Shown one piece after another: positions 23,996-50,883 of a stretch of DNA of 64,000 bases. The stretch comes from Naegleria gruberi. Taxonomy: Eukaryota. The position numbers and the translations under genes were made by a program. How positions within the stretch are numbered: position 1 is the first letter of the stretch; each line of letters opens with the position of its first letter. The stretch lies in the NCBI GenBank assembly GCA_000004985.1, contig GG738876.1. One strand, written 5' to 3'. The notes beneath the pieces are model-generated. The model saw only the letters and a list, made by a program, of their open reading frames with translations. It was not told where the DNA came from and searched no databases.

Positions 23996-26900
23996 ATGAG
24001 AATTGTTACTCAAAAGCAAAGAAGATGGGGTAAACAAACTTCCCATCAACTACAGTCATTGTTAAAAACAGCACTCGTGGTGATAACACTGTTAGTATTG
24101 ACCCTTCAAAACTTATTCGAAACTGTACAGGGTGAACAACAAGTTTCCTTCACATTAGATTCTAACAAACTCATCTGTTCGGATTCTTCAAGCTACAACA
24201 GCACAATCTTTTTAAATTCATGCCAAGAAGTGCTTGGTTCAGCCTTCACTAGTAAATTATCCAGCACAACCATTGACAATCCTTCGTCCTATTCTTCCCT
24301 AGTGAGTTGTTACTTTAATTCGGATAAAAAACTTGTGGCAGAGCTTGGCTATGGCTATGAAATTCAAGATATTTTCAAAGGAGAAACTTACTACGATGCC
24401 TTTGGAAGGAAAATAGCGATTATCATCGTTTCACAATTGAAATGTAGTTTTCAAATTTCAAAGCTACAGTACATGTACTTGATTAATGTAGTAGATTGTG
24501 GAAGTAATGTTGCCAAAATTACCTACTCTCTCACTCACGCAAATGCTGATTTACCCAAATATTCAACATTTTCACATCCAATGATGGCTATTCCCTTTTC
24601 AAATAATTATATTAACAATGGTAGACCGGATGTTACTTTTAATCTTGCTACCCAAGCACTCACATATAGTACTTCAAAAGCAAGTGACCAAACCTCAGTT
24701 ACTACTGGTGGTGTTATTGAGTATGGAACTACTACTTTGGTTGGAAATCAAGGATATACACAATTTTTTCTGAATGAAAGCTCAATTGACTCATACACAA
24801 CAACATTTGAACAACCTACTCCTAAAACATTGTATAATTATCTATTAATCAAACAGAATAGAGATGTTGTGGATGTAACAACCTTTGCATCTGGGTATAA
24901 TTACAAATTCTCCTCATCATCAGGTTATTCGAAAACAATATATACTTCATTTTCATACAAGTCAGATTGTTACTACTTGTCAGGAGGTGATAAAACTCAT
25001 CACAAAACACAGGATTTAACAATTAGTATACAGTCAACTGATTTGGAAAGATGTCCATTATATGCTTTACAATACATTTTTGATGGGAATGCTAAAACTA
25101 AAACGAGTAGCACGACATATGCTGCATCTTCACTAACAGATGGTTCAGAAAAGACTGTTACAGTAACTTTGGTTCAACCAACTGGTGGATACGTTGGTGC
25201 GTTCAGAACAACTGTGAGAATTGGAATTTTCCCTGCCATGATGAGACCAGTTTATTTCCCTATTGCACAAACAACTGGACAAAAGCTAACACTTCAATCC
25301 ATTATCGACATTCCTAATCTCACGACCTCTTTAATTTCATGTCAATTGATTGTTGCAACAGGAACTAATGAATATACTTCAAATTCAATTACCTATGATT
25401 ATACTCCAAATTCAATTCAAGTTCAAAATTACAAAACCTATTCGATTATATCGGTTTCAATTACTGTTGGAAATCCTGGAACTTCTTACAAGATTAGAGT
25501 CAATTATAATGGAGATACAAAACATTACAATGATTTCCAAATTTCTCCACAATCAAAACCAAACCTATTGGGTATTTGTAAAGTATCCACAGTTGAATCG
25601 AACCCAATAGCCTACGAGACATTTTTTGGTATTTATTGTGAAAATTATGCAGATTTTGACTTTAGATCAATGAAAATTCAAGTATTGAACGATCAATCAC
25701 AATCAATTTTGACCTTATCCAATACCAAGTACACTCGTATTTTTGCGAGATTACCAAAATCAGCAACAGGTAAATCAAATACTGTCTTGTTTACATTGAC
25801 AGATAGCACAGGAGCTGTATTTGAGTTTAAGGATACCTATAAAGCTTCCATGTGGAGCGACACTAATTTGATTAGTACAGTAGATTTCTACATCAAGTCC
25901 AAGCAAGTGAGAAACTATCAAACAGCCAATAATATTGCAATTTTGTTGGACATTCTTGCAGATTATTGTAAGAGGAATACATTATCTTCTTCTGAGATGG
26001 TTACTGTGAAGGGAATTGTTCGTTATGCCATAAATGAAACATTTAACATTAGAGATACTTTCCATCCTAATGTTTATCCTGAGGCTACTGAATTATTGTT
26101 TGGATTATTTAGAGAATCAACTAATTTGGCGAATTATCTAGGATTTTCAGAGTTTAATGACAAATTGAAGGAAATTCTCTCATTTATGACAAGTTATGTA
26201 AGAAAATCATCCTTTTCCAGCACTGATTATAATTTCTTGATAGATTACATGTCAAGACTTGTGGATAATGGAAATCAAACAACTACTGATCCATCTGCTG
26301 TTTCAACTTTGAAGAAAAACATTGATGGATTGACTAATATCGCCAGCAAGAATTCTCCATTCAAGAGTGATTATTTTTCATATCAATCTCAGACCTTCTA
26401 CTCATCAGATGAAATTGCTTCAAATCAAGTGAATTTGGAAAATAGTTGGGTTAGAGTGTTGTTTGGATCTGAGGTGGCCAATTTGGTAAAATCTCAATCA
26501 CAATACGATTTGGAAACAAGTTTATACAAGAAGTATATTGTGGAAAATAATGTTACACTCCCAGTTATTGCCTCTATCAGTTTGAAGAGACAAGATAGCT
26601 CTGTGGTTAATGTTACTGGATTACAGACACCAGTATTAATATATTTCAACATGGATCTAATTAATTCAACAATGGCAAATCAATATAGAAACTATCAATC
26701 GAGAATTTCATGTTATTACTTGAATGAGTTGACAAGCAAGTGGGCCAATGATGGTCTAACAACAGAGATTATCACTGAAAATGGTCAAACTGTTGTCAAG
26801 TGTTCTTCCACTCACCTTACTTCATTCACAATATTCTCAGACTTGTTCAATACTACAGGTAGTAACACAAATACCCCATCAACAGATAGAAATGGACTAG

Positions 26901-28032
26901 ATGTTGGGGCAAGGGTAGCCATTGGCGTTTCAATTTCAGTATTCTTCCTCATTTTGATAATTGTGATTGTAATTATTATCATTGTAATTATATGTTGTCG
27001 TGTGAAAAAAGGCAAAAATAGTCAGAGCAATGTTTCTGATTCTGTCCAGGAAACCAATCCAATCACCAAGAGTTATGTAGAATTGAATCCAGTCTCCAAC
27101 TCTGATTCTGGTCCATCATTGTTTATTAGTGATTACAAGTCAGTGAGAGAGCCTTCATCCTCGAAACAATACGATACTACCAGTGGAAGTTCATTTACCT
27201 CAGAGCCAACCAGCTCACTCATGACTTCAACAAGTGGAAACTCTGTTATTGGAAAGAAGTATGAAATTTTGGAAAAGATTGGCCAAGGAGCATTCGGGGC
27301 TGTATTTAGAGCTAAAAATCTAGCCTATACTGGAAGATCTGGAGAATATCAATATGTTGCCATTAAAAAGATTCAGCTTTCTGGCCTCTCTGAAATGAAT
27401 GACAAATTCAAAGAGGCGGTCAACATGTTCAAGATTAGAAATGAGCATTTAGTTTGTTTGGAGGATGCTGTGGTGGACGAAACGACCATGTCACTCTACT
27501 TGGTCATGCAATATTATTCTCAAGGAGATTTGGACAAGTTTATCAAAAGCAAGCAACTCTTATCTGAGAGCATTCTGAAACAAATTATTGAACAAGTATG
27601 TGAAGGATTGAAATATTTGGAAGAGGAACGTAACATGCTCCACAGAGATATCAAACCTTCCAATATTTTCCTATCCAGCTATGATGGAAACAATATCAAG
27701 ACAGTGCTCAGTGATTTTGGATTGGCTAAGGAAAATAACATGATGTCAAGTGTTTCATTCGCTGGAACTCCATACTACATGTCTCCACAGGCCTTAATTG
27801 GAACCAAGTATAGCTTTAATGCAGATATCTTTAGTTTGGGATGTACCATTTTCATTCTCATCACTCATGACATGTCTCAATCCATAGCTCAATTATATTT
27901 CCAACATCAGGGCAATTTCTCTGAGGTTTATTCCTTCATTACCAACTCTATCCGTCAACATTCGAATGAACAATTCCAATACAGTGATGAATTCGTTCAG
28001 CTCTTATTTGCATTGATGGAATTTGATCCCAA
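23996..28032 (+). CDS. Receptor-like single-pass transmembrane Ser/Thr protein kinase with a roughly 950-aa ectodomain that ends in a GPS-like motif. The 3' end is truncated by an assembly gap.
   Basis: N-terminal hydrophobic signal or anchor; a Cys- and NxS/T-rich ectodomain; ...C..W...G...T..C.STHLTSFTIF immediately before the TM segment VAIGVSISVFFLILIIVIVIIIIVII. The kinase subdomains are GQGAFGAV, VAIKK, HRDIKPSN, DFGLAKE and GTPYYMSPQ. Confidence 0.75.
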
Positions 28033-28181
28033 NNNNNNNNNNNNNNNNNNNNNNNNNNNNNNNNNNNNNNNNNNNNNNNNNNNNNNNNNNNNNNNNNNNN
28101 NNNNNNNNNNNNNNNNNNNNNNNNNNNNNNNNNNNNNNNNNNNNNNNNNNNNNNNNNNNNNNNNNNNNNNNNNNNNNNNNN
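28033..28181. other. Assembly gap, a run of N.
   Basis: 149 consecutive N. The ORF-track protein spanning it (X residues) is an artefact that fuses two genes. Confidence 0.99.
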
Positions 28182-28186
28182 TAACA

Positions 28187-29545
28187 ATGTTGTGGATTGA
28201 AAAGGTTGGTGCAGTTGGAGGACAACTTGTTGCTGGATTTCAACCCGAATGTATGATTTGCAGAGAAACAATCAACAATGGAGAGGTTTGTATTGGCATG
28301 AGGAAGGTTCATGATTTGGCTATTCACTTTCCCTATCATCCGAGAAGATTTCTCGAAGAAGAGGAAAGGCTTCGTTCCGATGATCATCCATTCAATGAAA
28401 ATTATTTTGATGATTGCAAACAGGACAATGATTATGTACATACTGATTGTTATCCGTACCAATTGGTGAGGCCGTATGCTTGTATGTTTGATGATTCATC
28501 ATCGAATGCTTCTCATGCAGAACAAAAGCAAATTCATAAGTTGATTTCTGATTGGCAATATGGCTATAGAACATTGAATGCCAAGACAAAGAAGAGAAAA
28601 GCAGATAATGGTGATGAAAGTGAGAAGAAAACAAAGACTTCAAAGAGTACTGCAACAAAAAGGAAGAGAAAGACAAAGAAGGAATCAACAGACAGTGCAT
28701 CATCATCAACTAGTACCCCTGGAGGAAGTAGTAGTGGTACTACTGATTACAGTTGGATGAATGCTATTGATTGCACTAATGTGGATTCACCTTACTTGTT
28801 TGGACTCTCAGATGATGCTTGGTATGAAATTCTATCCTATCTACCTCATTATTCAATTGTGAAGGCCTCACAATCATGTAAGGCATTGTACCTTTATTCG
28901 AATAGGAGTATTCTTTGGGAGAATTTGGCAAGCAAAACTATTTGTCCTAATGCAAAACAAGTCCAACAGGAATACTTTCCAACTCTTACTGATGACTTTA
29001 AAAAGGTTTTCAGATTATTGTACAATAATTGTTGTGTAATTTGTGGAGATTATATCAGAAAAGGTGAAGACCTAGATAATAGAAAGAGTTTGTACAGATC
29101 AAAAGGTGGTATTATTGTAGAATCTAATCCATTTTATTATAATTTTATGATTGATCAGTGTCATTGCTCAACATGTTCAGAATCACCACTCATCAATACC
29201 TTTACAAGAACAAATGCCAAGACGCTTTATAGGGTTACAGATACTGAACTAGGGTGTACTAGAAATTTTGCAAAGCCTAACCCTTATTCTCCATCTGTTG
29301 CTATGGGAATATTCCTAGAGTTACAAGTTAAAATATTTCATTTACAGAAAGTGGAAGAAGAATTGAGGAAAAATTTCAAAAAATCAAAAACACATCCAAA
29401 ATCAGATTATTTAAAAATTATTGACAAGGCAAAACGAGGAGATTATGGAAAGGATTGTAAATTATATATTTTCTTAAATGATTCGAATAAGAAGATTTGT
29501 AAAGATAAGGCTATTTATACTTATATTGATGAATTGAGTCCATAA
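28187..29545 (+). CDS. Hypothetical F-box-like, Cys-rich protein. The 5' end is uncertain and possibly truncated by the gap.
   Basis: The ORF resumes right after the gap. The motif LSDDAWYEILSYLP is F-box-like. It carries Cys-rich CxxC pairs and a Lys-rich NLS-like stretch. Confidence 0.5.
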   Translation: MLWIEKVGAVGGQLVAGFQPECMICRETINNGEVCIGMRKVHDLAIHFPYHPRRFLEEEERLRSDDHPFNENYFDDCKQDNDYVHTDCYPYQLVRPYACMFDDSSSNASHAEQKQIHKLISDWQYGYRTLNAKTKKRKADNGDESEKKTKTSKSTATKRKRKTKKESTDSASSSTSTPGGSSSGTTDYSWMNAIDCTNVDSPYLFGLSDDAWYEILSYLPHYSIVKASQSCKALYLYSNRSILWENLASKTICPNAKQVQQEYFPTLTDDFKKVFRLLYNNCCVICGDYIRKGEDLDNRKSLYRSKGGIIVESNPFYYNFMIDQCHCSTCSESPLINTFTRTNAKTLYRVTDTELGCTRNFAKPNPYSPSVAMGIFLELQVKIFHLQKVEEELRKNFKKSKTHPKSDYLKIIDKAKRGDYGKDCKLYIFLNDSNKKICKDKAIYTYIDELSP

Positions 29546-29582
29546 GTCAAAAAAAAGATTTGAGATTCTATCATGGTATTTA

Positions 29583-30761
29583 TTAAATATTTACAACAAT
29601 TTTTCCAACAGTTTTCTTTGATTTCATCATTTGCATTGCTTGTGTCGCTTCATCCAATTGGAAAACATTTAAATTCATCAAGCTGAAATTATTATCAGGT
29701 GTCAAAATGTTATGCATAAGGAAGGCAAATTCCTTTGGCTTTTTACCAAAGAAATTAACTAGACCATATTTAGGCGAACCTTTTGAGATTAAGGCAGAAC
29801 AAATGGTTGTTATCATATAATAAGCAGTGGAACAAATGGTTGAAAAATTGAGGGCAGCAGCACCTGGTGGAACTAGACAAGCATACACTACTTGATCCTC
29901 TGCTTTTCTACAATCCAAATGTTGCTTGACATCATCATAGAAATAGTAACCTCCAACACAATCTATAACCATATCGACATACTCTTCACCAAAGTCTCTT
30001 CTCAATACTTGGCAGACACTTGGTAACCCAGAAGTACTCGATGAGTGATATTCATTATTTCCATCCTTTGCACTTGTTTTGGTATAGTCAATTATTTCAT
30101 CAGCTCCCAAAGATTTAACATATTCAATATTCTTTTCTGAACACACAGCATAAATTGTCAAATCCAAAATCCTTTTCAAGAATTTACTGGCCATCAATAC
30201 AGCCATACTTCCGCAACCACCAGCTGCTCCAATAATCAACAATTTGAATTGTTTCTTTGGCTTTTCACTTGAATTAAGCAATTCTGGCTTTTCCATACAT
30301 TCCTTAATCAGAGCATCAATCTTTGGATGATGTGTATAGGCAGTAAATATAGTTCCACCAATTGTAGGAAATGCAGCAGCTTGCAAATCAGTCATTTCCT
30401 TTGGTTTCAAAATCAAATCATCCTCCTCAAATTTACAAAACTCTGCCAAGGTTCCAGTTTTGGCACCAGGTAATGAACCAACCACTTCATCACCAACTTG
30501 AAATTTCGTCACCAATGAACCAACCTTTTCAACAATTCCACTTCCGTCCAATCCCAAAATTAATGGAAACTCCTTCGGAAAGAGCAATTTTACAGCTCCA
30601 CTCGACATGTGGCCATCACCAGCATTCAAACTAGCAGCCTTGATCCTAACTAACACTTCCCTCTCCTTCAAATCTTGATCATTCAATTCAAAATCATTTC
30701 TTGATACAAATTCAGGTGATTCGGAATAACCTTCCAAAATTTGAGCTCTCATCTTGGTCAT
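29583..30761 (-). CDS. Zinc-type alcohol dehydrogenase / MDR oxidoreductase, a complete single-exon paralog of the gene at 1..662.
   Basis: 392 aa. GroES-like N-domain and a Rossmann fold with IIGAAGGCGS. Confidence 0.8.
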   Translation of the reverse strand: MTKMRAQILEGYSESPEFVSRNDFELNDQDLKEREVLVRIKAASLNAGDGHMSSGAVKLLFPKEFPLILGLDGSGIVEKVGSLVTKFQVGDEVVGSLPGAKTGTLAEFCKFEEDDLILKPKEMTDLQAAAFPTIGGTIFTAYTHHPKIDALIKECMEKPELLNSSEKPKKQFKLLIIGAAGGCGSMAVLMASKFLKRILDLTIYAVCSEKNIEYVKSLGADEIIDYTKTSAKDGNNEYHSSSTSGLPSVCQVLRRDFGEEYVDMVIDCVGGYYFYDDVKQHLDCRKAEDQVVYACLVPPGAAALNFSTICSTAYYMITTICSALISKGSPKYGLVNFFGKKPKEFAFLMHNILTPDNNFSLMNLNVFQLDEATQAMQMMKSKKTVGKIVVNI

Positions 30762-31084
30762 TTTGTTATTTCAACTAAAATATTATTATATTGTTATTAT
30801 TATGTACTATTGCTTTAGGGACAAAATCTAATGATCAAGTAAAACTTGTTATTTGATGTTTGCGTATTTTTTTTTCTTACTTTTGAATGAAATATTCATC
30901 AGCGCACTATTTAAGGTTTTTGGCGGGAAATAATTGTCCTGCATTAAATGAAACACGTGTTTCACATAAATTCAATCAATTGATACTTGACTAATTGGAA
31001 AGTGAGATGTGAATGAGAAAGAATGTGGAAGAAACACGTAAACCACATCAAAAAACATGTGTTTCTTCTATTTGGTTTTTCACT

Positions 31085-31396
31085 GGGATGTAAATTTGAA
31101 ATTGATTACAAAAATAAATTACAAAATTGTTGTAAGTTTCAATTTTTGAGCATGTATTAATTTTATAAACCACAATTTGCTATTCATTCCAATAGAGATC
31201 AATTCTACTACCTCGAAAACTATGATTATTTAATTGGGAATTACATTAGTTTCTTATAAAAAGATGCTTAGACCTAATTGTCAACCTTTCTGTCGTTTGT
31301 GAGCACAATCGTGTTCAACAAAGATGGCTGGGTTTCAATTAAGGTAATGTGGTGGTGTGAAATGTTGTCATGCCGATTGATGAACTGCTGTAATTC
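31085..31396 (+). repeat. Dispersed roughly 310-bp repeat family, copy C.
   Basis: Shares a conserved 5' end (GTAAATTTGAAATTGATTACAAAAATAAATT) and 3' end (GATGAACTGCTGTAATTCTTTT) with the copies at 40018..40330 and 42236..42550. The middle has diverged. Confidence 0.7.
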
Positions 31397-31649
31397 TTTT
31401 AACTGTTTGCTGAATTTTAATGTTTTTTACTGAAACACTATTAAAGTTGATTTCTCTAATTCTGAGCAGGTTGAAACAGCATCTTCTTGTGAAGAAACAT
31501 TGGAACAAAGTTAAAGGAAATGGATCGAATGTAACTACATTTTTTTGCTTAAGTAATATTCTAAACAGAAACCTTTCCCTTATTTCCTTTCTTGTAAATT
31601 TTTTGAAAACATTAATTTTATTTACAATTTGATAATTCATTGTAATAAT

Positions 31650-33302
31650 TCAATGCGACATTACTTCTTCATGATGCTCTTCAACAGTGTGATGTTGGTG
31701 AATATTCTTTGCCAAATAAAACCAAACAATAAATAGGCAGAAAATCAACCAAGAAAATACAAACATTACCAAACATAGTAATTGTGGTGTTAAAATTCCA
31801 AAAATATCATACAAGAAAGGAGAAGGAATCAAAACACCAATGGCTTGACCTATTCCATATCCAAAACAAATATCAAAAGCTGTAATTCTTCCCAAATAAT
31901 GATTAGGTGTCAAATGTTCGATTGATGACATGGAATAAACCCACATGACACCTCCTGCTGATCCAATAAAGAATTCAGCAATAATAAACATACTGGCATG
32001 GACACTGAAAGACATGAGTAAGAATGCAGCTGGGAAAACCAAGAAAGATCCAAGAATTATGAAACGAGTCCAGAATGCACTCCTCACTGATCTTCTTATA
32101 CGATTTCCAAAAGTTAATTCGAATAACATTGGAGCTAAACCTGATCCAACGCCAAATAGACAGTAAGCAATGGTATTAGTGAGCTTGGCTCCTCCTTCAT
32201 CATTAAATAATTGCATTGATGGTAATTCGGATAATTTAACATTGATAAATTCAATACTGGCCCAAACTGATGATCCCAATAATTTCATAACAACAAAACT
32301 CAACAAGTAACCCTTTCCACTGAATAATAACTTGAAGCCAGCAATTAATTCCTTCACAGAATGTTTCATCATTGGTAATGGTTTAGTTGGGAAATCGGCT
32401 GGTTTCGGTGGATTCAAATCAGGGAACCACAACAAGGCAATTGACAATGCCAACGCAATCAAGAACAAAACTCCATTCAATACATAACAAGTAATCAATC
32501 CAAATGCAACTCTCACAGCTCCACCAATGGCACCACCTGTATACGAACAAAACAACCATGTCAAACTATCCAATGCATTACACGCGACCAAATCATTGTG
32601 ATCGACACAGAGTGGCATCATGCATCCTCTCGAAGCATCATAAAATGCATTAAGGAAAAATATTAAGGCAAGGATGATGTAATAGAAGGAGAAGAGGACT
32701 GCCTTATTTTCCATAAAGCAACCACCAATGAGGACGAAAGCTAGAATGGCTCTCAGGACATTGCAGACAATCAAGACCTTTCGTCTATCGAAAATATCAG
32801 AAACTACACCTGCGAATGGAGTAGCAACACATGACGGTAAAAAGATACAGAGAAATACAGCACTTGTGGCAAATCCAACAGTTGTACGTTCTTCCACTTC
32901 ATAAGCAATACCAATTTCTGAAAAGTAATTTCCCATTCCTGACAAGACACCTGCCATCCAAATAATTAAAAATCTCTTATTATGAAATAGAAGTGAAATA
33001 TAGGGATTTCTTGCAAGTTTCGGCTTTGAACTTTCCTGATCCAATTGTGCATAGTTTCCAATAGTATGTGGTGCTTCCAAACTTTCCATTGACGGTCTAG
33101 GTTCAGAGTTTAGTTCAATATCGTCCAATGATTTTCTAGATAAATCCTGATCATGACTTGTCGCTTCATCATGATCTTCAATGGAAATCCTCTCTCCACC
33201 TGCAACCACTCCTCCATCCTCTTGATTCCAATCTTCATCTCCTCTTGCATGTCTTTGTTTGTCCATCACTTTCAATTCTTCTTCCATTTTTGTTGTGGTC
33301 AC
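31650..33302 (-). CDS. Major facilitator superfamily transporter, paralog of 14452..16209.
   Basis: 550 aa and about 12 TM segments. Internal nucleotide stretches are about 97% identical to the other copy. The N-terminus is acidic and unrelated. Confidence 0.75.
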   Translation of the reverse strand: MTTTKMEEELKVMDKQRHARGDEDWNQEDGGVVAGGERISIEDHDEATSHDQDLSRKSLDDIELNSEPRPSMESLEAPHTIGNYAQLDQESSKPKLARNPYISLLFHNKRFLIIWMAGVLSGMGNYFSEIGIAYEVEERTTVGFATSAVFLCIFLPSCVATPFAGVVSDIFDRRKVLIVCNVLRAILAFVLIGGCFMENKAVLFSFYYIILALIFFLNAFYDASRGCMMPLCVDHNDLVACNALDSLTWLFCSYTGGAIGGAVRVAFGLITCYVLNGVLFLIALALSIALLWFPDLNPPKPADFPTKPLPMMKHSVKELIAGFKLLFSGKGYLLSFVVMKLLGSSVWASIEFINVKLSELPSMQLFNDEGGAKLTNTIAYCLFGVGSGLAPMLFELTFGNRIRRSVRSAFWTRFIILGSFLVFPAAFLLMSFSVHASMFIIAEFFIGSAGGVMWVYSMSSIEHLTPNHYLGRITAFDICFGYGIGQAIGVLIPSPFLYDIFGILTPQLLCLVMFVFSWLIFCLFIVWFYLAKNIHQHHTVEEHHEEVMSH

Positions 33303-36302: not shown

Positions 36303-37715
36303 TCATTGTCGATAAATAAAACCTTCAATATCACACAATCGTGCGTAGTATCTTTTCATCAATGATGGTTCTCTTTCTTGCAACTTGTTCCATACTTCAT
36401 CACCACTATAATCGGAACACTCGAGGAGGTACTCCAAAAAGGTTAAATCCAAACCACCATCACGAGCATTGAACATGGAGTAATAGACACGTTCATCATC
36501 ATGAATACCAATTTCCTCTGCCTTAAATTTGGGAGGAAGACCTCTATAATTGCGAAATAGCTCGAGCATTGCCACTAATTTCTCATAAGCACCTTCTCTT
36601 ATCTTGGTGATGATTATTTGTCTGATGAGCTCGGTTTGATAGGTCTTGTATGGTTTGGATTGGAGGAAAATATTAAGATAGGGTTTCACCTTTTGGAATG
36701 ATTCATATTCTTGATATTGAGAAAATATATGTTCCAACTTGTAATATCTAACAATGTATGCTTCTAGTTGAGGATTTTCAATATCAAATATTCTTTCACA
36801 TTTTCCAAGTCTCTCACCTAAAAGTACATATACTCCTCTTGGTGATCTTTTTGAAACTTCCTCAATTGCAATTTGAAAGAAATCAAACCTTGCATTGAAT
36901 AATTCTGAGAGGTCGTGACGATATGGCATACGTAATGAGATACGTTTCATCATTTCACGAAACAAGCAACAACTACAATCTTCAAGATTTGGTATCTGGG
37001 TAATGGGAATCTTTTCAAAGAGTTCGAGTGTTGGATTTTTTAGTATGGAAATTTCAATGCACTCTAGGTCATAATTGACAGTTTTCAAAAGAGCATTATG
37101 AAAACTTGATCCATAATTGAAATTCTCACTTTGCAGTACCCTCTCCACTCCTTTCGAATAAATATGAGACAATTTCGCAAAGTTTACCAAAAAGTCCCTT
37201 GTACAAACTTCCATATCACTTCGAGGAATGTAATTCAAATTCCTACAAAACAAAATTTCCTTAACATCTTGACTATTCAAGCACCACTTAATTTCTTGAA
37301 AACTAATTCTAAAGTGGTGAAACAAATAATACCACTCATGTGCCATTATTCTCATCAGAACAACCTGACAAGAGGCAACATTTTCCAAAAATTCATCATC
37401 CTCCAATTTCCTTCTCAATTGTTTTGCTCTCTTCTTATAGATTCCTCTCATTCCCTTCGGACTCTGCTGATAATTGTGAAAATCATCATTCGGAAGAATT
37501 AATTCAGACTCGTGTTGAAGAGAGGAGGCTACTAAATCTTCATATCTACTAGCTGTCTGTTCTAGAAAGCATCTAATATGTCGTAGCCAATTTATTTGTT
37601 GTGTCTCAATGATGGAGAACCAATTCTTGTTAACCAACGCTGCTCGGAGAAGTAAATCACCAAGTGGAAGGAAGGAAAGAATTTCACTGATGCAATCATC
37701 ACCTGGTTCAATCAT
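36303..37715 (-). CDS. F-box domain protein, hypothetical.
   Basis: The N-terminal motif ISEILSFLPLGDLLLRAALVNKNWFSII is an F-box consensus. 470-aa ORF. Confidence 0.6.
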   Translation of the reverse strand: MIEPGDDCISEILSFLPLGDLLLRAALVNKNWFSIIETQQINWLRHIRCFLEQTASRYEDLVASSLQHESELILPNDDFHNYQQSPKGMRGIYKKRAKQLRRKLEDDEFLENVASCQVVLMRIMAHEWYYLFHHFRISFQEIKWCLNSQDVKEILFCRNLNYIPRSDMEVCTRDFLVNFAKLSHIYSKGVERVLQSENFNYGSSFHNALLKTVNYDLECIEISILKNPTLELFEKIPITQIPNLEDCSCCLFREMMKRISLRMPYRHDLSELFNARFDFFQIAIEEVSKRSPRGVYVLLGERLGKCERIFDIENPQLEAYIVRYYKLEHIFSQYQEYESFQKVKPYLNIFLQSKPYKTYQTELIRQIIITKIREGAYEKLVAMLELFRNYRGLPPKFKAEEIGIHDDERVYYSMFNARDGGLDLTFLEYLLECSDYSGDEVWNKLQEREPSLMKRYYARLCDIEGFIYRQ

Positions 37716-38224
37716 TATTTTTTTTTGTAATGTTTTTTTGTTGATCTTTTCTTAATTGAATGTGAATTGAATAGTTTACAACAAGATCCAATCGTGTGGA
37801 ATGGTTTATTAAATAGATTTAAAGATAAAATGGATTGTTCTTAATGCTGTCTTTAGGATCATTTCTGGTCAAACTTTTTGCGTCATTTGACTTTTTGGCA
37901 TGTAATAAGCAAGTTGGCATTTTGACAGATCCATTCCAATTATAATACAAATGAGTTTGAAGGTTAGCTCAATAATAGTATCCAAATTAATTTTAAATTC
38001 TTTTTCTTCCTTCACAACCTGTATCTTCATATTTTGGTAAAAGTTACTTGACTTTTGTTTAATTTCATATCTGACAGGTTTGCTCTGTCCCATGTTACTT
38101 GAAATTCTACAAGAATTCAAATAAAATTCTCAACATCAACTGCCCCAAACTTTTGTCCCTCATCAAAATCGAATTATCAATACTCGGATGCTGTCAATTT
38201 GATTAATGTGTTGAATTCTAATCA

Positions 38225-38530
38225 AATCCATTCTTTGTCAGTGGTGAAAGCTATGGTATGTTTCAACAAAATATTTGTCGATCTAAATTGACTATTTTCA
38301 GGTGGTAATTATGTTCCATTGCTCGCCAGAGAAATTTTAAAGTACAATACTAACAGTCAAAAGAAGATTTCATTCAAAGGATTGAGTGTTGGTAATCCAA
38401 CAATGGATAATGATTTGGATGCTAATGCCTATCTCCCATTCATGTTCCATCATGCTTTGGTTGGAAGTGAAGAATTTGATCTCTATCAAAAACAATGTCC
38501 AAACTTTAATACGGCTTTGATTGGTTGTAC
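38225..38530 (+). pseudogene. Relic or fragment of a serine carboxypeptidase (S10) gene.
   Basis: Encodes ..NPFFVSGESYG | 46-nt GTATGT..TTCAG intron | GNYVPLLAREIL..FKGLSVGNPTMDNDLDANAYLPFMFHHALVGSEEFD, which is the S10 active-site Ser region plus following block. There is an in-frame stop 3 codons upstream. The N-terminal and C-terminal catalytic regions are absent. Confidence 0.6.
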
Positions 38531-38606
38531 AATTCATACATGGATTTATTTTTATTGGAAAGGTTACAATTCCAATAAAAATAAATCCTTTCAAATAATA
38601 AATATT

Positions 38607-39897
38607 TCATTGAAAAATTATAATATCCGAAAGATTGCCATCAATTACTCTATTCTTAAGATTTTCTCCTTGTTCCTTCAGATTCTTTGATTCTGAATTT
38701 GTTTCCCAATAAGCAATTAAATTGTCTCTTGCTGAAGTTATTTGAAGATGTTGATTTGGTTTTGGATTGGTAACTTTGTGAATGAGTTTGAATTTTGATT
38801 GAGAATCTAAGGAGTAAATTTGTGAATTATTGATCACTAGGAAAAAGGTTTTGTTTGAGCTACACATTCTACAGGAAATAACAGGTTCACCACATATTTT
38901 AGCAAGGTTGCTATGAAACTTATCAACCAAATATAAATTGAATTTGTCTGGAAATGTTGAATAAATTAGTAGTATCTCAAATATACTTACTTGTGAGATA
39001 AATCCAACTGTAATAGGATGCACAAATGTCTATAAAGTATTCATCTTCTCCCATTAAACTTATTGGTGCCAATTGTTTCATCATTGGCAAATTATTACCA
39101 TTATTTCCCATAGAATATCCACAATAGAAAATATTGTGATCCCTTGTTAAGGCAATAATATTGTGATCTCCATTCACTGTCTTGGTAAAGAAAGGTTCTT
39201 TGCACTCATTGGAAGGGTCAAGACAACAACATTGGATAGCTGGAATATTATTATCACTAGATGGTTGAGCTATCTCAAAAAATTGATTACTTCCACATGC
39301 CAAAAGCCTTCCATGTGATGTCAGAAAACAACAAGTAAATGCAGCACATGAAGTCTTTGTAATAAATTCCCCATCTTGTAATTGAAAATCCTCCAAGCAA
39401 GTCCATTCAATTTCTGAATTCTCAATTCCACTCTGTGAAAAAGTCTCAACTCTTTCTGTAAATTTTGTTTTCCTCACTCCAAACTCATTCCTATTCGCTG
39501 AATAACAAACAAACACTCTCGTTCTAATTAAATTCATCCCACCAGTACTTCCAGCACCACCACCACTAACAGATTGAAGCACCAAAACACAAGCATGATA
39601 ACTGACACTAATATTCACAATTCTTTCATTTGGAAATTTAAAGCTAATTTTATAATATTTCCAATTCCTGTTTTTATCAAGAGAAAATACTTCATCATCT
39701 TCCGACACTACAAAACAAGTTAATTCTCTACAGGAAATAAATTTAATTCTCCCAAATCGTTGCAAGTAATTGTTCGGAATGTTTGATGTTGGTTGATTTT
39801 TAAATCGGCTACTAGTAACGGTGTTGGTAAAAAATTCGATGGAATCTTGATAATGATTGAAGAGAGAAAATGTTTCTGCTGTTAGATTTAGAGACAT
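38607..39897 (-). CDS. Hypothetical repeat protein, possibly RCC1-like beta-propeller. Two exons, complement(join(38607..38947,38991..39897)).
   Basis: ORFs 38977..39939 and 38607..39023 join in frame through a 43-nt GTAAGT..CAG intron. Gly/Cys-rich repeat segments (GRLLACGSNQ, NIIALTRDHNIFYCG). The start is placed at the A-rich ATG at 39897; an alternative upstream ATG exists at 39939. Confidence 0.55.
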
Positions 39898-40017
39898 TTT
39901 TTTGTGAACTTTTACAATTTTTATTCCATGTGTACACAACTATATATTGTATTGCTGTTTCTGATCTAGTTAGAAAGAAAAGGAAAGGTAAAGAATATAG
40001 AAAGATGAAGAAAAAAA

Positions 40018-40330
40018 AAGAATTACAGCAGTTCATCAATTGGCACACAGATTTTGTGCCAACACATTACCTAAAGCGTAACCCTTCAATCAAAGGTACA
40101 CGAGCTACACAATGACCGTCAGATTTTGCTTTTAGTCTGAGCATCTTTTTTATTAGAAACTAATGTAATTCCCAATTGAATTGTAATTGTTTTCAAGGTA
40201 ATAATCATGAACGCAATAAGAATGAATATCAAATTGTGGTTTTATTCTTTTTAAAATGTTGCACATTTTCAATCCCCAAACTGAAACTACAAATTTTGCA
40301 ATTTATTTTTGTAAGCAATTTCAAACAATC
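40018..40330 (-). repeat. Dispersed roughly 310-bp repeat family, copy A, inverted relative to copies B and C.
   Basis: This is the reverse complement of 42236..42550 with a few substitutions. On its own strand it ends in a T-run. Confidence 0.75.
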
Positions 40331-40600
40331 CATATTATTTGCGAACAACCTAATATTAGAATTGTTCTCAATTATCAATAGTCAGAATTGTAATAACTGA
40401 TATTTGGATCAAGAGTCAATGATGACATTTGTTAAATTTTTTGTAAAGTTTCATGTTCCGATTTTCAAAACCTTCCAATCAAGCAAAAACGGAAGGTTTG
40501 GAAAATCGAATAAGTTGAAACGAAACAATTTTTTGTTTTCCAACACAAAAAAAAACTAAAATCTGATCACAACATAACAACAACAAGAAGCTTCTTTAAC

Positions 40601-41266
40601 ATGATGATGGACCCGGAAACAGCCAGGTTGAAGGCCTATTTTGATGATTATTACGATCAATTCATTGATGGCCACATGGATGAGAATTTTACTAATACCA
40701 ATATTGACCATTACATTTCAACTCTTTTCAGCCGAATGGAATCAGATAAACCACCACTACCACCTGCGACTGTTGCCACTGAATGTGTTATTAGTATTGC
40801 AAATGAGAAGGATGATAGTCATAATTGTAACAATAAGATCATCATTGAATTATTAAGCTCCTTCTACTTGCAAACTCGTCGTGATCAACAAGAGGTTGAA
40901 ATTTGTGTCTACTTTGAAAAAACAAATGCAGAGCAGTGGCAACGAGTGTTTACTGCCACTGCTACCCTTGAAAAGAAGGGTCGATATAATATGAAAGCTT
41001 TTAGCAGAAAAGAACTCAAGAAGAGGCTTAAAGATCAACCTGGGTATAAGGTAAATCAAAAAGACAAATTCTATTTAGTGATTGGTCAATTCAAATTCGT
41101 ACTGGTTTCGAAACAACGTGATAAGGTACCAAAATGGCACAATCTAATTGTTGTCAGTAATAGAGAAGTCGTTTCTTCCGAATACTCTTTCACTAATTTC
41201 ACTAATAAGGCCCTTATCCCAGAATTCAACTTTGCTAAAGTTAATGATCAGCTTAGCTTTCATTGA
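40601..41266 (+). CDS. Hypothetical protein of 221 aa.
   Basis: A complete ORF between the inverted repeat copies. No domain recognised. Confidence 0.45.
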   Translation: MMMDPETARLKAYFDDYYDQFIDGHMDENFTNTNIDHYISTLFSRMESDKPPLPPATVATECVISIANEKDDSHNCNNKIIIELLSSFYLQTRRDQQEVEICVYFEKTNAEQWQRVFTATATLEKKGRYNMKAFSRKELKKRLKDQPGYKVNQKDKFYLVIGQFKFVLVSKQRDKVPKWHNLIVVSNREVVSSEYSFTNFTNKALIPEFNFAKVNDQLSFH

Positions 41267-41560
41267 TGAGTTCGATTGCCAATACTACTTATAATTAGTT
41301 TAGTTTGGTGATCACTACATACTTTATATATTCTATATGTATCCATTCCTCTATCTATCCATACTATATATATTACTATCTATCCATCCAAGAGTATTCG
41401 AAATTTCAATTAATGGTAGTGGTTGGTGTTATTTAGAACCCATTTGAATAACAAGCGAACCACTACCATTAATTGGAATTTTGATTGCTGCAGATGTTCA
41501 TGCTAGTATCTATAATCCATCCTTATTCAAATCCAGTCTTATTGATTGGTAATTTTCAAT

Positions 41561-42052
41561 TTTATGCATTAAAACCTGTAGGGACATCATCAATCAAACA
41601 CCTTACAGAGTGAAAGATAACAAGGAACTGATCTGTGATTAGTTTCTTGTTGAGTGGACCAAAGAGTGAGGTTGTCCAAACAATAACATAAGGCAACTTC
41701 TCTCATCCACTCTATTCGAATTGCTGTTATGCCATTCGAATCACAGCTGTACTCATTAGGGAGCATTAGTCTATTTTCGATTAAGTAATTGAGTATTTGC
41801 AATCTGTTGCTTGTCGCTGTTGGTAAAGTTTCAGATAATATCATACTTATTACACCTTAGTGATAGATCCATGATTAGTTTTCAGTTTACTATTTAATTT
41901 GGGCAACTTACTTTCCTTAATGTTATTGTTTGGACAACCTCACTCTTTGGTCCACTCAACAAGAAACTAATCACAGATCAGTTCCTCGTTATCTTTCACT
42001 CTGTAAGGTGTTTGATTGATGATATCCCTACAGGTTAATGCATATAAAACTA
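41561..42052. mobile_element. Foldback / MITE-like non-autonomous element with about 130-bp terminal inverted repeats.
   Basis: 41561..41692 is the near-perfect reverse complement of 41920..42052, with 2 to 3 mismatches. A roughly 230-bp non-coding core lies between. No ORF. Confidence 0.75.
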
Positions 42053-42235
42053 ATAAAAATTGATTCAAATCAATTTGAATTTATTTGTTTAATTATTTTT
42101 CCTTGAAAATCTTGGAAAATCTTCAAATTATTCTGCCGAGATTTGCAGCGAATATTGACTCCTTGTTTGAATATCAACCATAAAGAACAATTAGAATTGT
42201 TTCATTCAATTTTTCAATATATAGGTGAAAGAAAA

Positions 42236-42550
42236 AACTGTAAATTTGAAATTGATTACAAAAATAAATTTCAAAATTTGTAGTTTCAGTTTGGGGATTG
42301 AAAATGAGCAACATTTTAAAAAGAATAAAACCACAATTTGATGTTCATTCTTATTGAGTTCATGACAATTACCTTGTAAATATCACTATTCAATTGGGAA
42401 TTACATTAGTTTCTAATAAAAAAGATGCTCAGACTAAAAGCAAAATCTGACGGTCATTGTGTAGCTCGTGTACCTTTGATAGAAGGGTTACGCTTTAGGT
42501 AATGTGTTGGCACCAAATCTGTGTGCCAATTGATGAACTGCTGTAATTCT
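42236..42550 (+). repeat. Dispersed roughly 310-bp repeat family, copy B.
   Basis: Same family as copies A and C. Ends in CTGCTGTAATTCTTTTTTTT. Confidence 0.75.
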
Positions 42551-42716
42551 TTTTTTTCTTCATCTTTCTATTCTTTACCTTTCTTTTACATTCTAACATC
42601 TCTGATATTCGAAACTTGAAAGTTTTCATTTAATTTCGAATTGATTGGAACGAAACAATCATTTTTGAATTTAATAGAACTTTCTCAAAATCAATCAATT
42701 TCAATTGACCAAAAAA

Positions 42717-43631
42717 ATGTCTCAAGACAATCTCACAGATGAAGAATCGACATATTTCATTAGAAATTATCCATTAACTCATCCTTTCATCATGGCACAC
42801 TATAAGAAACAACGAACCATTCCTGTATTGGCTGCTCCTCTTTCTAGTTTTGCAGTTAGTTGTGCTACCATCTCGTACTTTGCCTTTAGTTTAACCTTTC
42901 CCGAGAAGAGATTAGTAATGGATTATGTACATGATGAATATTCGAATAATGGAAGTGGAAAGCCCAGATATAGTGGTGGAATTGTGGATGTGGTGAGGAA
43001 GATTTATGCTGAAGAAGGAATTGCTGGAGTTTTGGGGAAGAAAGAGGCTGTAGCAGCATTGATTGAAATGGGAGCTACCATTGGATATTTTGCAACTATT
43101 GGAAATGTTGTGAAATCTTTTACTGTACCGAATAGTTGGTTAGAATTTGCTATTGACACTTTCTTAATGAATACTGTGATTCATCCAATTTTAGTCGTTT
43201 CGTTTGCCCTTCATAAGAGATTTGACGACAAAACGAAAGATAATAGGGGATTTATTGAGACTGCAAAGAAGATTTATTCAGAAAGTGGTGTGAAAGGATT
43301 TTATCGTGGTTTTGGTTGGTCTTTTTTATTCCACCTTGAAAAGGTTTACAAAAAAGGTTTAGCTTGGGTAATTCGTTCAGGAGTGGAATTTTTTCTTGAC
43401 ATTGAACATGAAAACTTGGATGCTGAAACACACTTTACATTGAAACATATTGAAATTAATTTAGTTAAAATCCTTTACGATGTGATAATGCCATTCTCAT
43501 CATCCTTGGGTAGATATGTTGGAGATCAGGGAGCTACCTATTCCAATTACTTTGATTGTGTGAAAAAGACTTACCAACAAGAAGGATTGAAAGGATTGTA
43601 TAAGGGTTCATGGGTGGCAATCTTTTTGTAG
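42717..43631 (+). CDS. Divergent mitochondrial-carrier-family-like protein.
   Basis: Repeated G..G.Y+G-type signatures (GVKGFYRGFGWSF, GLKGLYKGSWVAI) and amphipathic helices. The ATG is preceded by an A-run. Confidence 0.5.
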   Translation: MSQDNLTDEESTYFIRNYPLTHPFIMAHYKKQRTIPVLAAPLSSFAVSCATISYFAFSLTFPEKRLVMDYVHDEYSNNGSGKPRYSGGIVDVVRKIYAEEGIAGVLGKKEAVAALIEMGATIGYFATIGNVVKSFTVPNSWLEFAIDTFLMNTVIHPILVVSFALHKRFDDKTKDNRGFIETAKKIYSESGVKGFYRGFGWSFLFHLEKVYKKGLAWVIRSGVEFFLDIEHENLDAETHFTLKHIEINLVKILYDVIMPFSSSLGRYVGDQGATYSNYFDCVKKTYQQEGLKGLYKGSWVAIFL

Positions 43632-49680: not shown

Positions 49681-50883
49681 CTACCACATTTGGAATAAAT
49701 CATCAGCATTTGTTGGTAACATTGTGAGTCTCTTCTTCTTTTGCTCTATAAAATCTTGCAAGTCAACTGGATCACTATTTGCTGGACTCACGTCACTTTT
49801 TCTTGGAGTTCTATTAGAAAAACTATTCAATGGAGTGGATGTAATCGTACCAGGTGTTGGGAGTGGTCTTTCCTTAAGAGGTTTTCCACTAATTTGAACG
49901 GTTGGAGTTGTTGGAAGATTCGTCTTTTCCTTTTCAAGTTCCTTATTGAGAAAATCATTTCGTTCTTGTTTAATCTTATCCATCAGATTGCTGGTGTGGA
50001 GAGTTTTAATGTTAGTGCCTGTTACTGTTGATGTGCTTGGTTTTGGTGAGGTTAGTGCTGAGCTAGTGGTATAGTCAACATTCGAATAAGATTTCGAATG
50101 GACTGGACTTGAAGGTAATTGTACGGATTCTCTTTCTTTTCTTATCATATTTTCCAATAATTCTAAACGTTTCATTTCTTCTTCTCTCAATAATCTTAAC
50201 AATTCTTGTAAGCGATCTTCTTCAGAATTCGACCAATTTTCGGATGAAGAAGGTGTGAATCGAATAGACTTTCTTTCAAATAATTGCATTGCTTCCTTGT
50301 AATTTGATGAATCCAACTTTTCATTTTCAAATTGTTGCAATAATTTTGAGAATCTTTCTGTCATTTTACTGTCAGCTGTCGAGACATTCTTTCTAATATT
50401 GAAATTTCTCTTAACTCTGTCATGATGGAAAGCTGTGGTGGATTGTTGTTTTGGTTTTCTTTCAATTCTTGCAATTTTCTCGCTTACACTTGAAGTTGGT
50501 GGAGAGTTTCCTCCAGTTTCGGTTAATTGTTCGAAATTACCAATTGTCTTTCTGATGGAAGAATTAGTTTTGATATTTCTTGAAATTCTGTGATCCGAAG
50601 ATGGGGAATGATTCTTTGGTGATGAAGATAAATTTGGTGAAGAGGACATTCTATTCAAATTATTATTCGAATGTGGTTTAATCATCACAGAGGAAGAATT
50701 TGAACGATTTAATATTGGTACATTCGAATCATCCTTTGCTGATGGTTGAGTTGGCGATGATCCTTGCTTTTCAAAAATGTCAATTCTTTCTTTCGTCTTG
50801 TTGGAAATCGAAACTGTATGTCTCTTATTCGAATCATCAAACTTTTGAGCAAGGGATGAAACTTTTTTCACTCCAGGTGACAT
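49681..50883 (-). CDS. Hypothetical Ser/Pro/Asn-rich protein with a central charged, coiled-coil-like segment.
   Basis: 400-aa ORF. Low-complexity composition. Confidence 0.45.
   Translation of the reverse strand: MSPGVKKVSSLAQKFDDSNKRHTVSISNKTKERIDIFEKQGSSPTQPSAKDDSNVPILNRSNSSSVMIKPHSNNNLNRMSSSPNLSSSPKNHSPSSDHRISRNIKTNSSIRKTIGNFEQLTETGGNSPPTSSVSEKIARIERKPKQQSTTAFHHDRVKRNFNIRKNVSTADSKMTERFSKLLQQFENEKLDSSNYKEAMQLFERKSIRFTPSSSENWSNSEEDRLQELLRLLREEEMKRLELLENMIRKERESVQLPSSPVHSKSYSNVDYTTSSALTSPKPSTSTVTGTNIKTLHTSNLMDKIKQERNDFLNKELEKEKTNLPTTPTVQISGKPLKERPLPTPGTITSTPLNSFSNRTPRKSDVSPANSDPVDLQDFIEQKKKRLTMLPTNADDLFQMW

What the first reader, a model, noticed from the sequence alone, without database searches (positions are those of the whole stretch)
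41561..42052. Foldback MITE-like element with about 130-bp near-perfect terminal inverted repeats
41561..41692 and 41920..42052 are reverse complements with only 2 to 3 mismatches (for example GGGACATCATC against GGGATATCATC). They flank a roughly 230-bp core that has no coding capacity. A minus-strand 84-aa ORF (41590..41844) inside it is spurious. The high arm identity suggests recent mobility, or a hairpin-forming locus that could be a small-RNA source.
Basis: seen in the sequence. Interest (0 to 1): 0.55.

Follow-up and report, generated by a model that had tools for sequence, protein, structure and literature searches.

The report
Long hairpin repeat in Naegleria spacer
A real 490-bp non-coding hairpin-forming inverted repeat lies between two genes of the amoeba Naegleria gruberi, nested inside a larger inverted repeat; it looks like a relic palindromic transposon or a local inverted duplication, which is ordinary, and mobility could not be shown.

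Summary
Arms 41560-41696 and 41912-42052 are about 95% reverse-complementary (E = 3e-56) around a 216-nt unique loop. Either strand folds as RNA into a roughly 137-bp stem (z = -26). The window is Naegleria gruberi NEG-M.

The MITE reading is only partly supported:
- The window holds no second copy, and none appeared in the metagenome, viral or prokaryote collections. The N. gruberi genome itself could not be searched.
- No flush target-site duplication exists. The candidates are a trivial palindromic TA and a 9-bp direct repeat set 26 and 13 nt away from the arms (chance rate 1-3%).
- The 84-aa ORF is spurious.

The hairpin is nested in a 2.6-kb unit bounded by 357-bp inverted arms (39969-40325 / 42245-42597, 94%). 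That unit also holds an orphan gene and a 97-nt hairpin, and a third, 73% copy of the outer arm lies at 31089-31425. The outer arms diverge unevenly, so high arm identity need not mean recent insertion.

Best guess: a relic palindromic non-autonomous DNA transposon (0.4). The main rival is a local inverted duplication (0.3). N. gruberi has Dicer-like genes, so it would be a Dicer substrate if transcribed; this is untested. Interest is low.

The parts
41560..41696 (.). Left arm of the flagged inverted repeat
   Evidence: BLAST self-hit 41560-41696 against 42047-41912, 94.9% over 138 columns, E = 3e-56. Differences are itemised.
41697..41911 (.). Unique loop of about 216 nt, non-coding. It contains two ATTCGAAT palindromes (41714, 41734) that form a small internal stem.
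   Evidence: There is no other copy in the window (nhmmer). Its similarity to the arms is at chance level (score 30 against a genomic control mean of 30.4). The internal stem appears in the folds, and the motif positions are.
41912..42052 (.). Right arm of the flagged inverted repeat
41590..41844 (-). 84-aa ORF spanning the loop and left arm; spurious
   Evidence: The ORF is listed. It has no homologue, is not in the protein collection and therefore not an annotated N. gruberi protein, and has only a sub-threshold Pfam match at E = 0.086.
41525..41533 (.). Left copy of the 9-bp direct repeat ATTCAAATC, a candidate but non-flush target-site duplication, 26 nt outside the left arm
   Evidence: Found. 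The empirical chance rate for a direct repeat of 9 bp or more in such flanks is 1-3%.
42063..42071 (.). Right copy of the 9-bp direct repeat ATTCAAATC, 13 nt outside the right arm (counted from 42049) and itself part of a local palindrome
   Evidence: The local palindrome at 42047-42086 is I5.
41393..41489 (+). Neighbouring 97-nt hairpin (32-nt arms, 88%), about 70 bp upstream of the flagged element
   Evidence: The RNA fold is -55.7 kcal/mol on + (z = -11.2) against -34.8 on - (z = -6.5). Four of its five transition-type mismatches are G.U on the + strand. The Rfam mir-34 match scores only 25 bits against a gathering score of 53.4.
39969..40325 (-). Left arm of the enclosing outer inverted repeat (one copy of a repeat unit of about 355 nt)
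   Evidence: BLAST 39969-40325 against 42597-42245, 94.4% over 357 columns, E = 4e-156. The 176-nt core is 98% identical.
42245..42597 (+). Right arm of the enclosing outer inverted repeat
40601..41266 (+). Orphan gene B, enclosed by the outer arms and annotated as 'predicted protein' (P0007, which starts one codon later)
   Evidence: The only hit is N. gruberi's own protein. It has no Pfam domain. The AlphaFold model is unusable (pLDDT 36).
31089..31425 (+). Third, diverged copy (about 73%) of the outer repeat unit, showing that the unit belongs to a dispersed repeat family
   Evidence: BLAST E = 1e-42, the alignment with invariant blocks of 22-26 nt, and nhmmer E = 7e-86.

Best explanation
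The flagged feature is a genuine, non-coding, palindromic (hairpin-type) DNA element of about 480-530 bp. It lies in the 1.45-kb spacer between orphan gene B and a mitochondrial-carrier gene of Naegleria gruberi. The most likely origin is a relic non-autonomous cut-and-paste DNA transposon of the palindromic or foldback MITE type. On that reading it inserted either at a TA (element 41565-42042, Tc1/mariner-like) or with a 9-bp duplication (element 41534-42062, Mutator-like), into a region that already carried other repeats. Its two arms may since have been kept alike by gene conversion between closely spaced inverted copies, so they need not be young. Nothing indicates that it is active now. 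If it is transcribed through from either side, the RNA would fold into a stem of about 137 bp. N. gruberi's Dicer-like enzymes could cut such a stem into siRNAs, so any present-day effect would be a by-product of the structure.

Shown: the inverted repeat, its foldability, the absence of coding capacity, the absence of other copies in 64 kb, and the nesting.

Inferred: the transposon origin, the gene-conversion history, and any small-RNA output.
For: - It has the size, non-coding nature and long, near-identical terminal inverted repeats of a MITE.
- It sits in an unusually long, AT-rich intergenic spacer (31% GC), beside other repeats. These are a dispersed repeat family of about 355 nt present three times in the window, and a 97-nt hairpin. 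This is the pattern of a small repeat nest.
- With a TA duplication, the flanks rejoin as CAATTT-TA-TAAAAC, and the arms are then terminal (read; option listed).
- A perfect 9-bp direct repeat brackets the element, with a chance rate of 1-3%.
- The arms are not a copy of any represented protein-coding gene. No Rfam family matches. There is no target in the window. All of this argues against a dedicated hairpin gene derived from a target.
- N. gruberi has Dicer-like genes (PMC4791657, PMC10328071), and N. fowleri has Dicer and Argonaute candidates (PMC13315211).
Against: - No second copy was found anywhere I could search. Multi-copy status, the defining property of a MITE, is therefore unshown.
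- No target-site duplication lies flush with the high-identity arms. TA is palindromic and is expected at about 10% of arbitrary palindrome ends.
- The 9-bp repeat is 26 and 13 nt away from the arms, and the intervening sequence is not significantly complementary (p = 0.17-0.3).
- The two 2-nt indels lie in the outermost 20 nt of the arms, where a recently active element should be most intact.
- The neighbouring outer repeat units also lack target-site duplications (flanks).
Confidence: 0.4

Rival explanations
1. It is a locally generated inverted duplication, that is a non-mobile palindrome. On this reading a 135-bp segment of the spacer was copied in reverse orientation about 216 bp away, by template switching or double-strand-break repair. 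Gene conversion has since kept the core of the two copies alike while the edges decay. It has no function.
For: - It is single-copy wherever it could be searched.
- It has no flush target-site duplication.
- The differences concentrate at the arm edges: 2 events in 111 core nt against 6 in 29 edge nt. This test is partly circular, because the edges were defined by where the alignment ends.
- The enclosing outer repeat shows significantly non-uniform divergence (p = 0.004).
- Four of the seven inverted repeats with arms of 28 nt or more in the 64-kb window fall in this 2.6-kb stretch, which suggests a region prone to inverted rearrangement.
- The window also holds inverted paralogous gene pairs.
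Against: - There is no microhomology signature, and the parent segment is not identifiable as pre-existing unique sequence.
- The 216-nt spacer is long for fold-back priming.
- The outer repeat unit clearly belongs to a dispersed family, since a third copy lies 9 kb away. At least part of this cluster therefore arose by dispersal and not by local duplication.
Confidence: 0.3
2. It is a functional hairpin-RNA locus. The palindrome, possibly together with the 97-nt hairpin 70 bp upstream, would be transcribed and diced into siRNAs or miRNA-like RNAs that regulate other loci or silence related repeats. Its origin could be either of the two explanations above.
For: - Either strand forms a near-perfect stem of about 137 bp.
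- The neighbouring 97-nt hairpin is markedly better on the + strand (-55.7 against -34.8 kcal/mol), because 4 of its 5 transition mismatches are G.U on +. This is a weak hint of selection on an RNA read in the same direction as genes B and C.
- N. gruberi encodes Dicer-like proteins (PMC4791657, PMC10328071).
Against: - No expression or small-RNA data could be consulted.
- No target was found: nothing else in the window matches, and the arm frames match no protein.
- The two core mismatches of the large hairpin favour the opposite strand to the small hairpin, so there is no consistent transcribed strand.
- The 4:1 count has a p of only about 0.2-0.4.
- No Rfam family matches.
Confidence: 0.12
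3. It is not an independent element but an internal part of one composite 2.6-kb transposon (39969-42597), whose 357-bp terminal inverted repeats enclose gene B and both hairpins.
For: - The outer arms are long and 94% identical, with sharp boundaries.
- A third copy of the arm exists elsewhere, as a solo terminal repeat would.
- Gene B is an orphan.
Against: - There is no target-site duplication beyond a 3-bp TCT with mismatched termini.
- Gene B has no transposase or DNA-binding signature, and its structure model is unusable.
- The outer arms sit 30-120 bp upstream of the outward-facing genes A and C, so they could equally be duplicated upstream modules.
- The three inverted repeats have different centres (41285, 41441 and 41804), so they are not one decayed palindrome.
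Confidence: 0.1
4. It is an assembly artefact, such as a chimeric or fold-back clone in the Sanger draft.
For: The scaffold is a draft with a 149-N gap 13 kb away.
Against: - The arms differ by 2 substitutions and 3 indel events and are separated by 216 nt of unique sequence. Artefactual palindromes are identical and abut each other.
- Where an independent assembly of a second strain exists, it agrees with the scaffold at 98.4%.
Confidence: 0.03

Closest known systems
Palindromic or foldback-type MITEs, i.e. non-autonomous DNA transposons that are almost entirely two long inverted arms. Examples recalled from my own knowledge and not tested here: the PAL/PALTA/PALTTAA families of C. elegans in Repbase, and Stowaway-like TA-targeting MITEs.
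   Same: It is under 800 bp, non-coding, AT-rich and intergenic. Its arms of more than 100 bp are about 95% identical and make up over half the element. A possible TA target fits.
   Different: No second copy and no related autonomous element could be shown. No unambiguous target-site duplication exists. The outermost 20 nt are the least conserved part of the arms.
Non-autonomous Mutator-like elements (MULEs), which have long terminal inverted repeats and a 9-11-bp target-site duplication
   Same: The arms are longer than 100 bp, and a perfect 9-bp direct repeat brackets the element.
   Different: The 9-bp repeat is 26 and 13 nt away from the arms rather than flush with them. The intervening sequence is not significantly complementary.
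Endogenous hairpin-RNA (hpRNA) loci and MITE-derived miRNA genes of animals and plants (e.g. PMC3086885, PMC3237417)
   Same: It is a long, near-perfect inverted repeat that would fold into a Dicer-substrate stem. The host has Dicer-like genes.
   Different: No evidence of transcription, small RNAs or a target could be obtained. The arms are not derived from any detectable gene.
Drosophila Foldback (FB) elements
   Same: The inverted terminal repeats are long relative to element size.
   Different: FB arms are built of tandem subrepeats, and none are present here.

Membership tests
MITE (miniature inverted-repeat transposable element) | Terminal inverted repeats | tested here: met
   The arms are 137/141 nt at about 95% identity.
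MITE (miniature inverted-repeat transposable element) | Small (under about 800 bp) with no coding capacity | tested here: met
   The element is about 490 bp. Its longest ORF, 84 aa, has no homologue, is not annotated, and has no domain. The 44-aa arm frame gives only a spurious hit to a repeat protein.
MITE (miniature inverted-repeat transposable element) | Target-site duplication directly flanking the terminal repeats | tested here: inconclusive
   Only palindromic 2-bp options lie flush with the arms (TA at 41563-64 / 42043-44). The 9-bp ATTCAAATC repeat is not flush, and its chance rate is 1-3%.
MITE (miniature inverted-repeat transposable element) | Multiple dispersed copies with different flanks | tested here: inconclusive
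   There is no second copy in the 64-kb window or in JGI metagenomes, IMG/VR or GTDB genomes.
MITE (miniature inverted-repeat transposable element) | An autonomous partner sharing the terminal repeats | not testable with these tools
   This needs the whole genome or the Repbase/Dfam Naegleria library. No transposase gene was seen among the window's ORFs.
piggyBac-derived element | TTAA duplication flush with both ends | tested here: not met
   TTAA occurs at 41569-72 and 42035-38. However, the left copy is offset by 2 nt, and the palindrome continues outward through ATGCA and TTTTAT. The empty site would then have to be a 24-bp palindrome.
Mutator-like element (MULE) | A 9-11-bp duplication flush with long terminal inverted repeats | tested here: inconclusive
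   The 9-bp direct repeat is present but lies 26 and 13 nt from the arms. Complementarity of the flanks is not significant (p = 0.17-0.3).
Drosophila-type Foldback element | Arms composed of tandem subrepeats | tested here: not met
   TRF finds no tandem array within 41560-42052.
hpRNA / endo-siRNA hairpin locus | A long, near-perfect intramolecular RNA duplex | tested here: met
   The stem is about 137 bp. dG is -264 and -269 kcal/mol, with z = -26 on both strands.
hpRNA / endo-siRNA hairpin locus | Transcription and Dicer-sized small RNAs from the arms | not testable with these tools
   No expression data were available. Only the presence of Dicer-like genes in N. gruberi is documented (PMC4791657, PMC10328071).
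hpRNA / endo-siRNA hairpin locus | Arms homologous to a target gene or repeat | tested here: not met
   There is no other match in the window. Two arm reading frames were searched against the protein collections without a real hit. Genome-wide DNA targets were not testable.
Known RNA family (Rfam) | A covariance-model match at the gathering score | tested here: not met
   Nothing overlaps 41560-42052 at E <= 1. The neighbouring small hairpin scores 25 bits against mir-34, whose gathering score is 53.4.

The most novel reading that the evidence does not exclude
The B-C spacer could be a small-RNA-producing hairpin cluster in a discoban amoeba. On this reading the 97-nt hairpin (favoured on the + strand through G.U pairs) and the 490-nt long hairpin would be transcribed and diced. 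They would be framed by two inverted copies of a 355-nt unit that has block-wise conservation, a few compensatory pairs, and ends at a T-run, which might itself be an undescribed structured RNA. This would be a first hpRNA or miRNA-like locus described in Heterolobosea.
Probability: 0.08. Interest if true: 0.55.

Novelty: new member of a known kind. Interest (0 to 1): 0.2.

Why it matters
It matters little on its own. Palindromic repeats of this size are common by-products of transposition and of inverted duplication. The practical value is in annotation. The 84-aa ORF should not be called a gene. The B-C spacer of N. gruberi is a small nest of inverted repeats, and it is a reasonable place to look first if small-RNA data for Naegleria become available. 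Most N. gruberi repeats are still unclassified (PMC12344493), so defining this family genome-wide would add modestly to the repeat library of a key discoban model.

Tried and rejected
1. Reaching the N. gruberi scaffold or other genomic copies through the look-up of encoding contigs with window proteins. Nothing was on record.
2. Finding other copies through protein space, using the 84-aa ORF and the 44-aa arm frame against 1.84 billion representatives. The single hit, P0008, is a bacterial protein with 28 tandem FN3-like repeats. It matches an 18-residue motif many times over, so it was rejected as chance.
3. A presence/absence test in a second strain. ENA metagenome ERZ929261 holds a Naegleria contig 98.4% identical to the window, but I could not reach its contig for this locus. 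Gene B's cluster has no ENA member. My guesses for the annotated models of genes A and C were not in the collection. That was a wasted search.
4. Exact-pattern scans of JGI metagenomes, IMG/VR and GTDB genomes. All returned zero.
5. The idea that the right part of the loop is a degraded third arm copy. It looked convincing by eye but is at chance level.
6. The idea that the palindrome continues outward to 41528/42087. This is not significant.
7. Structure prediction of orphan gene B, to look for a transposase-like fold. The model has pLDDT 36, so no fold search was run.
8. The piggyBac TTAA reading. Rejected because the palindrome continues beyond the TTAA.
9. The bacterial-type promoter and terminator scan. 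It is not applicable to a eukaryote and gave no enrichment.
10. Literature searches. I found no description of this element or of Naegleria MITEs or hpRNAs. The genome paper itself is not held.

Full report
**Source and setting**

Four window ORFs are identical to annotated proteins of Naegleria gruberi strain NEG-M, all on one 396,977-bp scaffold. The window has about 33% GC and is densely packed with long, mostly intron-free ORFs. The flagged interval lies in a 1.45-kb spacer. Upstream is gene B (40601-41266, +), an orphan 'predicted protein' found only in N. gruberi. Downstream is gene C (about 42717-43631, +), a mitochondrial-carrier protein.

**Check of the observation**

The inverted repeat is real. 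The repeat finder reports arms 41573-41696 and 41913-42036 (124 nt, 96%, 216 nt apart). Gapped alignment and BLAST extend them to 41560-41696 and 41912-42047 (94.9% over 138 columns, E about 3e-56), and a profile search extends the right arm to 42052.

There is also a 1-nt indel at the loop side and two 2-nt indels in the outermost 20 nt. The loop is 216 nt, not about 230.

As RNA, the + strand folds at -263.7 kcal/mol and the - strand at -268.9. Shuffled sequences average about -107, so z = -26.

The 84-aa ORF is at exactly 41590-41844 on the minus strand. It has no relative among 5.8 billion proteins, is not in the collection as an annotated protein, and has no Pfam domain. Calling it spurious is right.

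A window-wide search for inverted repeats shows that the hairpin is nested. A much larger inverted repeat has arms 39969-40325 and 42245-42597 (357 columns, 94.4%, E = 4e-156, with a 176-nt core at 98%). It encloses:
- gene B;
- a 97-nt hairpin at 41393-41489 (32-nt arms, 88%);
- the flagged hairpin.

Four of the seven inverted repeats with arms of 28 nt or more in the 64 kb fall in this 2.6-kb stretch. The three structures have different centres (41285, 41441 and 41804), so they are not one decayed palindrome.

The outer arm belongs to a dispersed family. A third copy at 31089-31425 is only about 73% identical but shares sharp boundaries and several invariant blocks of 22-26 nt. The outer arms end 30-120 bp upstream of the outward-facing genes A (RCC1-like, -) and C (+).

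**Is it mobile?**

I could not show this.
- Neither BLAST with 7-nt words nor an nhmmer profile of the two arms finds another copy in the window. The loop is also unique.
- Exact-word scans with arm sequences found nothing in JGI metagenomes, IMG/VR or GTDB genomes.
- A second N. gruberi-like strain exists in ENA metagenome ERZ929261, where contig L001 is 98.4% identical to window 28182-30806. I could not obtain its contig for this locus.

**Target-site duplications**

A scan over all plausible boundary pairs found only 2-bp palindromic options flush with the arms. The most economical is TA. With the element at 41565-42042, the arms are terminal and the flanks rejoin as CAATTT-TA-TAAAAC. However, TA is itself palindromic and would be seen at roughly one in ten arbitrary palindrome ends.

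TTAA occurs at both ends, but the palindrome continues through it (ATGCA, TTTTAT). A piggyBac-type insertion would therefore need a 24-bp palindromic target, and I reject that reading.

A perfect 9-bp direct repeat, ATTCAAATC (41525-33 and 42063-71), brackets the element. Such a repeat arises by chance in 1-3% of comparable flank pairs from this window. It lies 26 and 13 nt outside the arms, and the intervening sequence is not significantly complementary (p = 0.17-0.3). It is a lead, not evidence.

**Does high arm identity mean recent insertion?**

Not necessarily. In the outer repeat, substitutions are significantly non-uniform: 2 in the 170-nt core against 14 in the remaining 187 nt (Fisher p = 0.004). 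A single recent duplication would not give this pattern, but a gene-conversion tract or constraint would.

In the inner repeat the differences also cluster at the arm edges. This test is partly circular, because alignment ends define the edges. Closely spaced inverted copies are known to homogenise each other (established knowledge). The 95-98% identity therefore sets no date.

**Other origins tested**

- *Inverted copy of a gene fragment* (the usual origin of hairpin-RNA loci). The 84-aa frame and the stop-free 44-aa arm frame were searched. The only hit, P0008 at E = 2e-4, is a bacterial protein with 28 tandem FN3-like repeats in which an 18-residue motif matches repeatedly. It is a chance hit.
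- *Known RNA families.* No Rfam family overlaps the element at E <= 1, and the whole window yields only a tRNA-Asp at gathering thresholds.
- *Foldback-type architecture.* There are no tandem subrepeats in the arms, so this is excluded.
- *Degraded third arm copy in the loop.* This apparent resemblance is at chance level.
- *Gene B as a transposon protein.* Gene B gives no clue to a transposon identity for the 2.6-kb unit. It has no domain, and its structure model is unusable (pLDDT 36).

**Possible function**

If transcribed, either strand makes a duplex of about 137 bp. N. gruberi has Dicer-like genes (PMC4791657 analyses an N. gruberi DCR3, and PMC10328071 includes N. gruberi in its Dicer domain scheme). 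N. fowleri has Dicer and Argonaute candidates, but RNAi is functionally untested in the genus (PMC13315211).

The neighbouring 97-nt hairpin is much more stable on the + strand (-55.7 against -34.8 kcal/mol), because four of its five transition mismatches are G.U on that strand. That is a weak hint of an RNA-level constraint. The two core mismatches of the large hairpin favour the opposite strand, and the counts are too small to carry weight. No target sequence exists in the window.

**Verdict**

- Relic palindromic non-autonomous DNA transposon sitting in a small nest of repeats: confidence 0.4.
- Non-mobile local inverted duplication homogenised by gene conversion: 0.3.
- Functional hairpin-RNA locus: 0.12.
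- Internal part of a composite 2.6-kb element: 0.1.
- Assembly artefact: 0.03.

All of these are known kinds of thing. Most N. gruberi repeats remain unclassified (PMC12344493), so this is at most a new member of a known kind. A single BLAST against the full genome, or the orthologous spacer from another strain, would settle the main question.

Noticed in passing
window 39969-40325 and 42245-42597: A large inverted repeat with 357-bp arms (94% overall, 98% in a 176-nt core) encloses orphan gene B, a 97-nt hairpin and the flagged hairpin. The arms end 30-120 bp upstream of the outward-facing genes A and C. Divergence along the arms is significantly non-uniform (p = 0.004).
   Followed up: partly
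window 31089-31425 (with 42239-42597 and 40331-39969): A third copy of the 355-nt outer unit is about 73% identical overall but has invariant blocks of 22-26 nt. The conserved part ends at GCTGTAATTC followed by a T-run (T8-9 in the two arms, T4 in the third copy). RNAalifold finds two helices kept by compensatory and G.U changes, only in the orientation that ends at the T-run. It could be an undescribed structured RNA or simply a repeat family. There are only two effectively independent sequences, no Rfam hit, and no target-site duplications.
   Followed up: partly
window 41393-41489: A 97-nt near-perfect hairpin lies 70 bp upstream of the flagged element. It is strongly strand-asymmetric (-55.7 kcal/mol on +, -34.8 on -), because its mismatches are G.U on the + strand. 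Its match to Rfam mir-34 is sub-threshold (25 bits against 53.4).
   Followed up: partly
window-wide, e.g. 41714, 41734, 19792, 20312, 50080-50827: The 8-bp palindrome ATTCGAAT occurs 17 times against 1.8 expected, and TTCGAA 45 times against 17.9. It occurs in both coding and intergenic sequence. Two copies lie 20 bp apart in the hairpin loop, and four lie in gene 49681-50883.
   Followed up: no
L001 (ENA ERZ929261, contig k127_284752) against window 28182-30806: A metagenome contig from a second N. gruberi-like strain is 98.4% identical over 2.6 kb. It runs 243 nt into the window's 149-N assembly gap (28033-28181) with AT-rich, non-coding-looking sequence. The 1849-aa ORF that the ORF listing reads across the gap (23996-29545) is therefore probably two genes.
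   Followed up: partly
window 8-610(+) / 29583-30761(-) and 14452-16209(+) / 31650-33302(-): Two pairs of paralogous genes lie in opposite orientation within the window. The zinc-type alcohol dehydrogenase-like pair is 40% identical at the protein level, and the pair of multi-pass membrane proteins is 75% identical. This indicates old inverted segmental duplication in the region.
   Followed up: partly
window 19758-19801 and 20278-20321: A 44-nt direct repeat (95%) has copies 520 bp apart in an intergenic stretch, each ending in AAATTCGAATAC.
   Followed up: no
window 37716-38976: A 1.26-kb stretch without any sizeable ORF lies between the F-box gene (36303-37715) and the RCC1-like gene A. This is unusually long for such a compact genome. 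It may hold further exons of gene A, since my intronless model of A is not the annotated protein.
   Followed up: no
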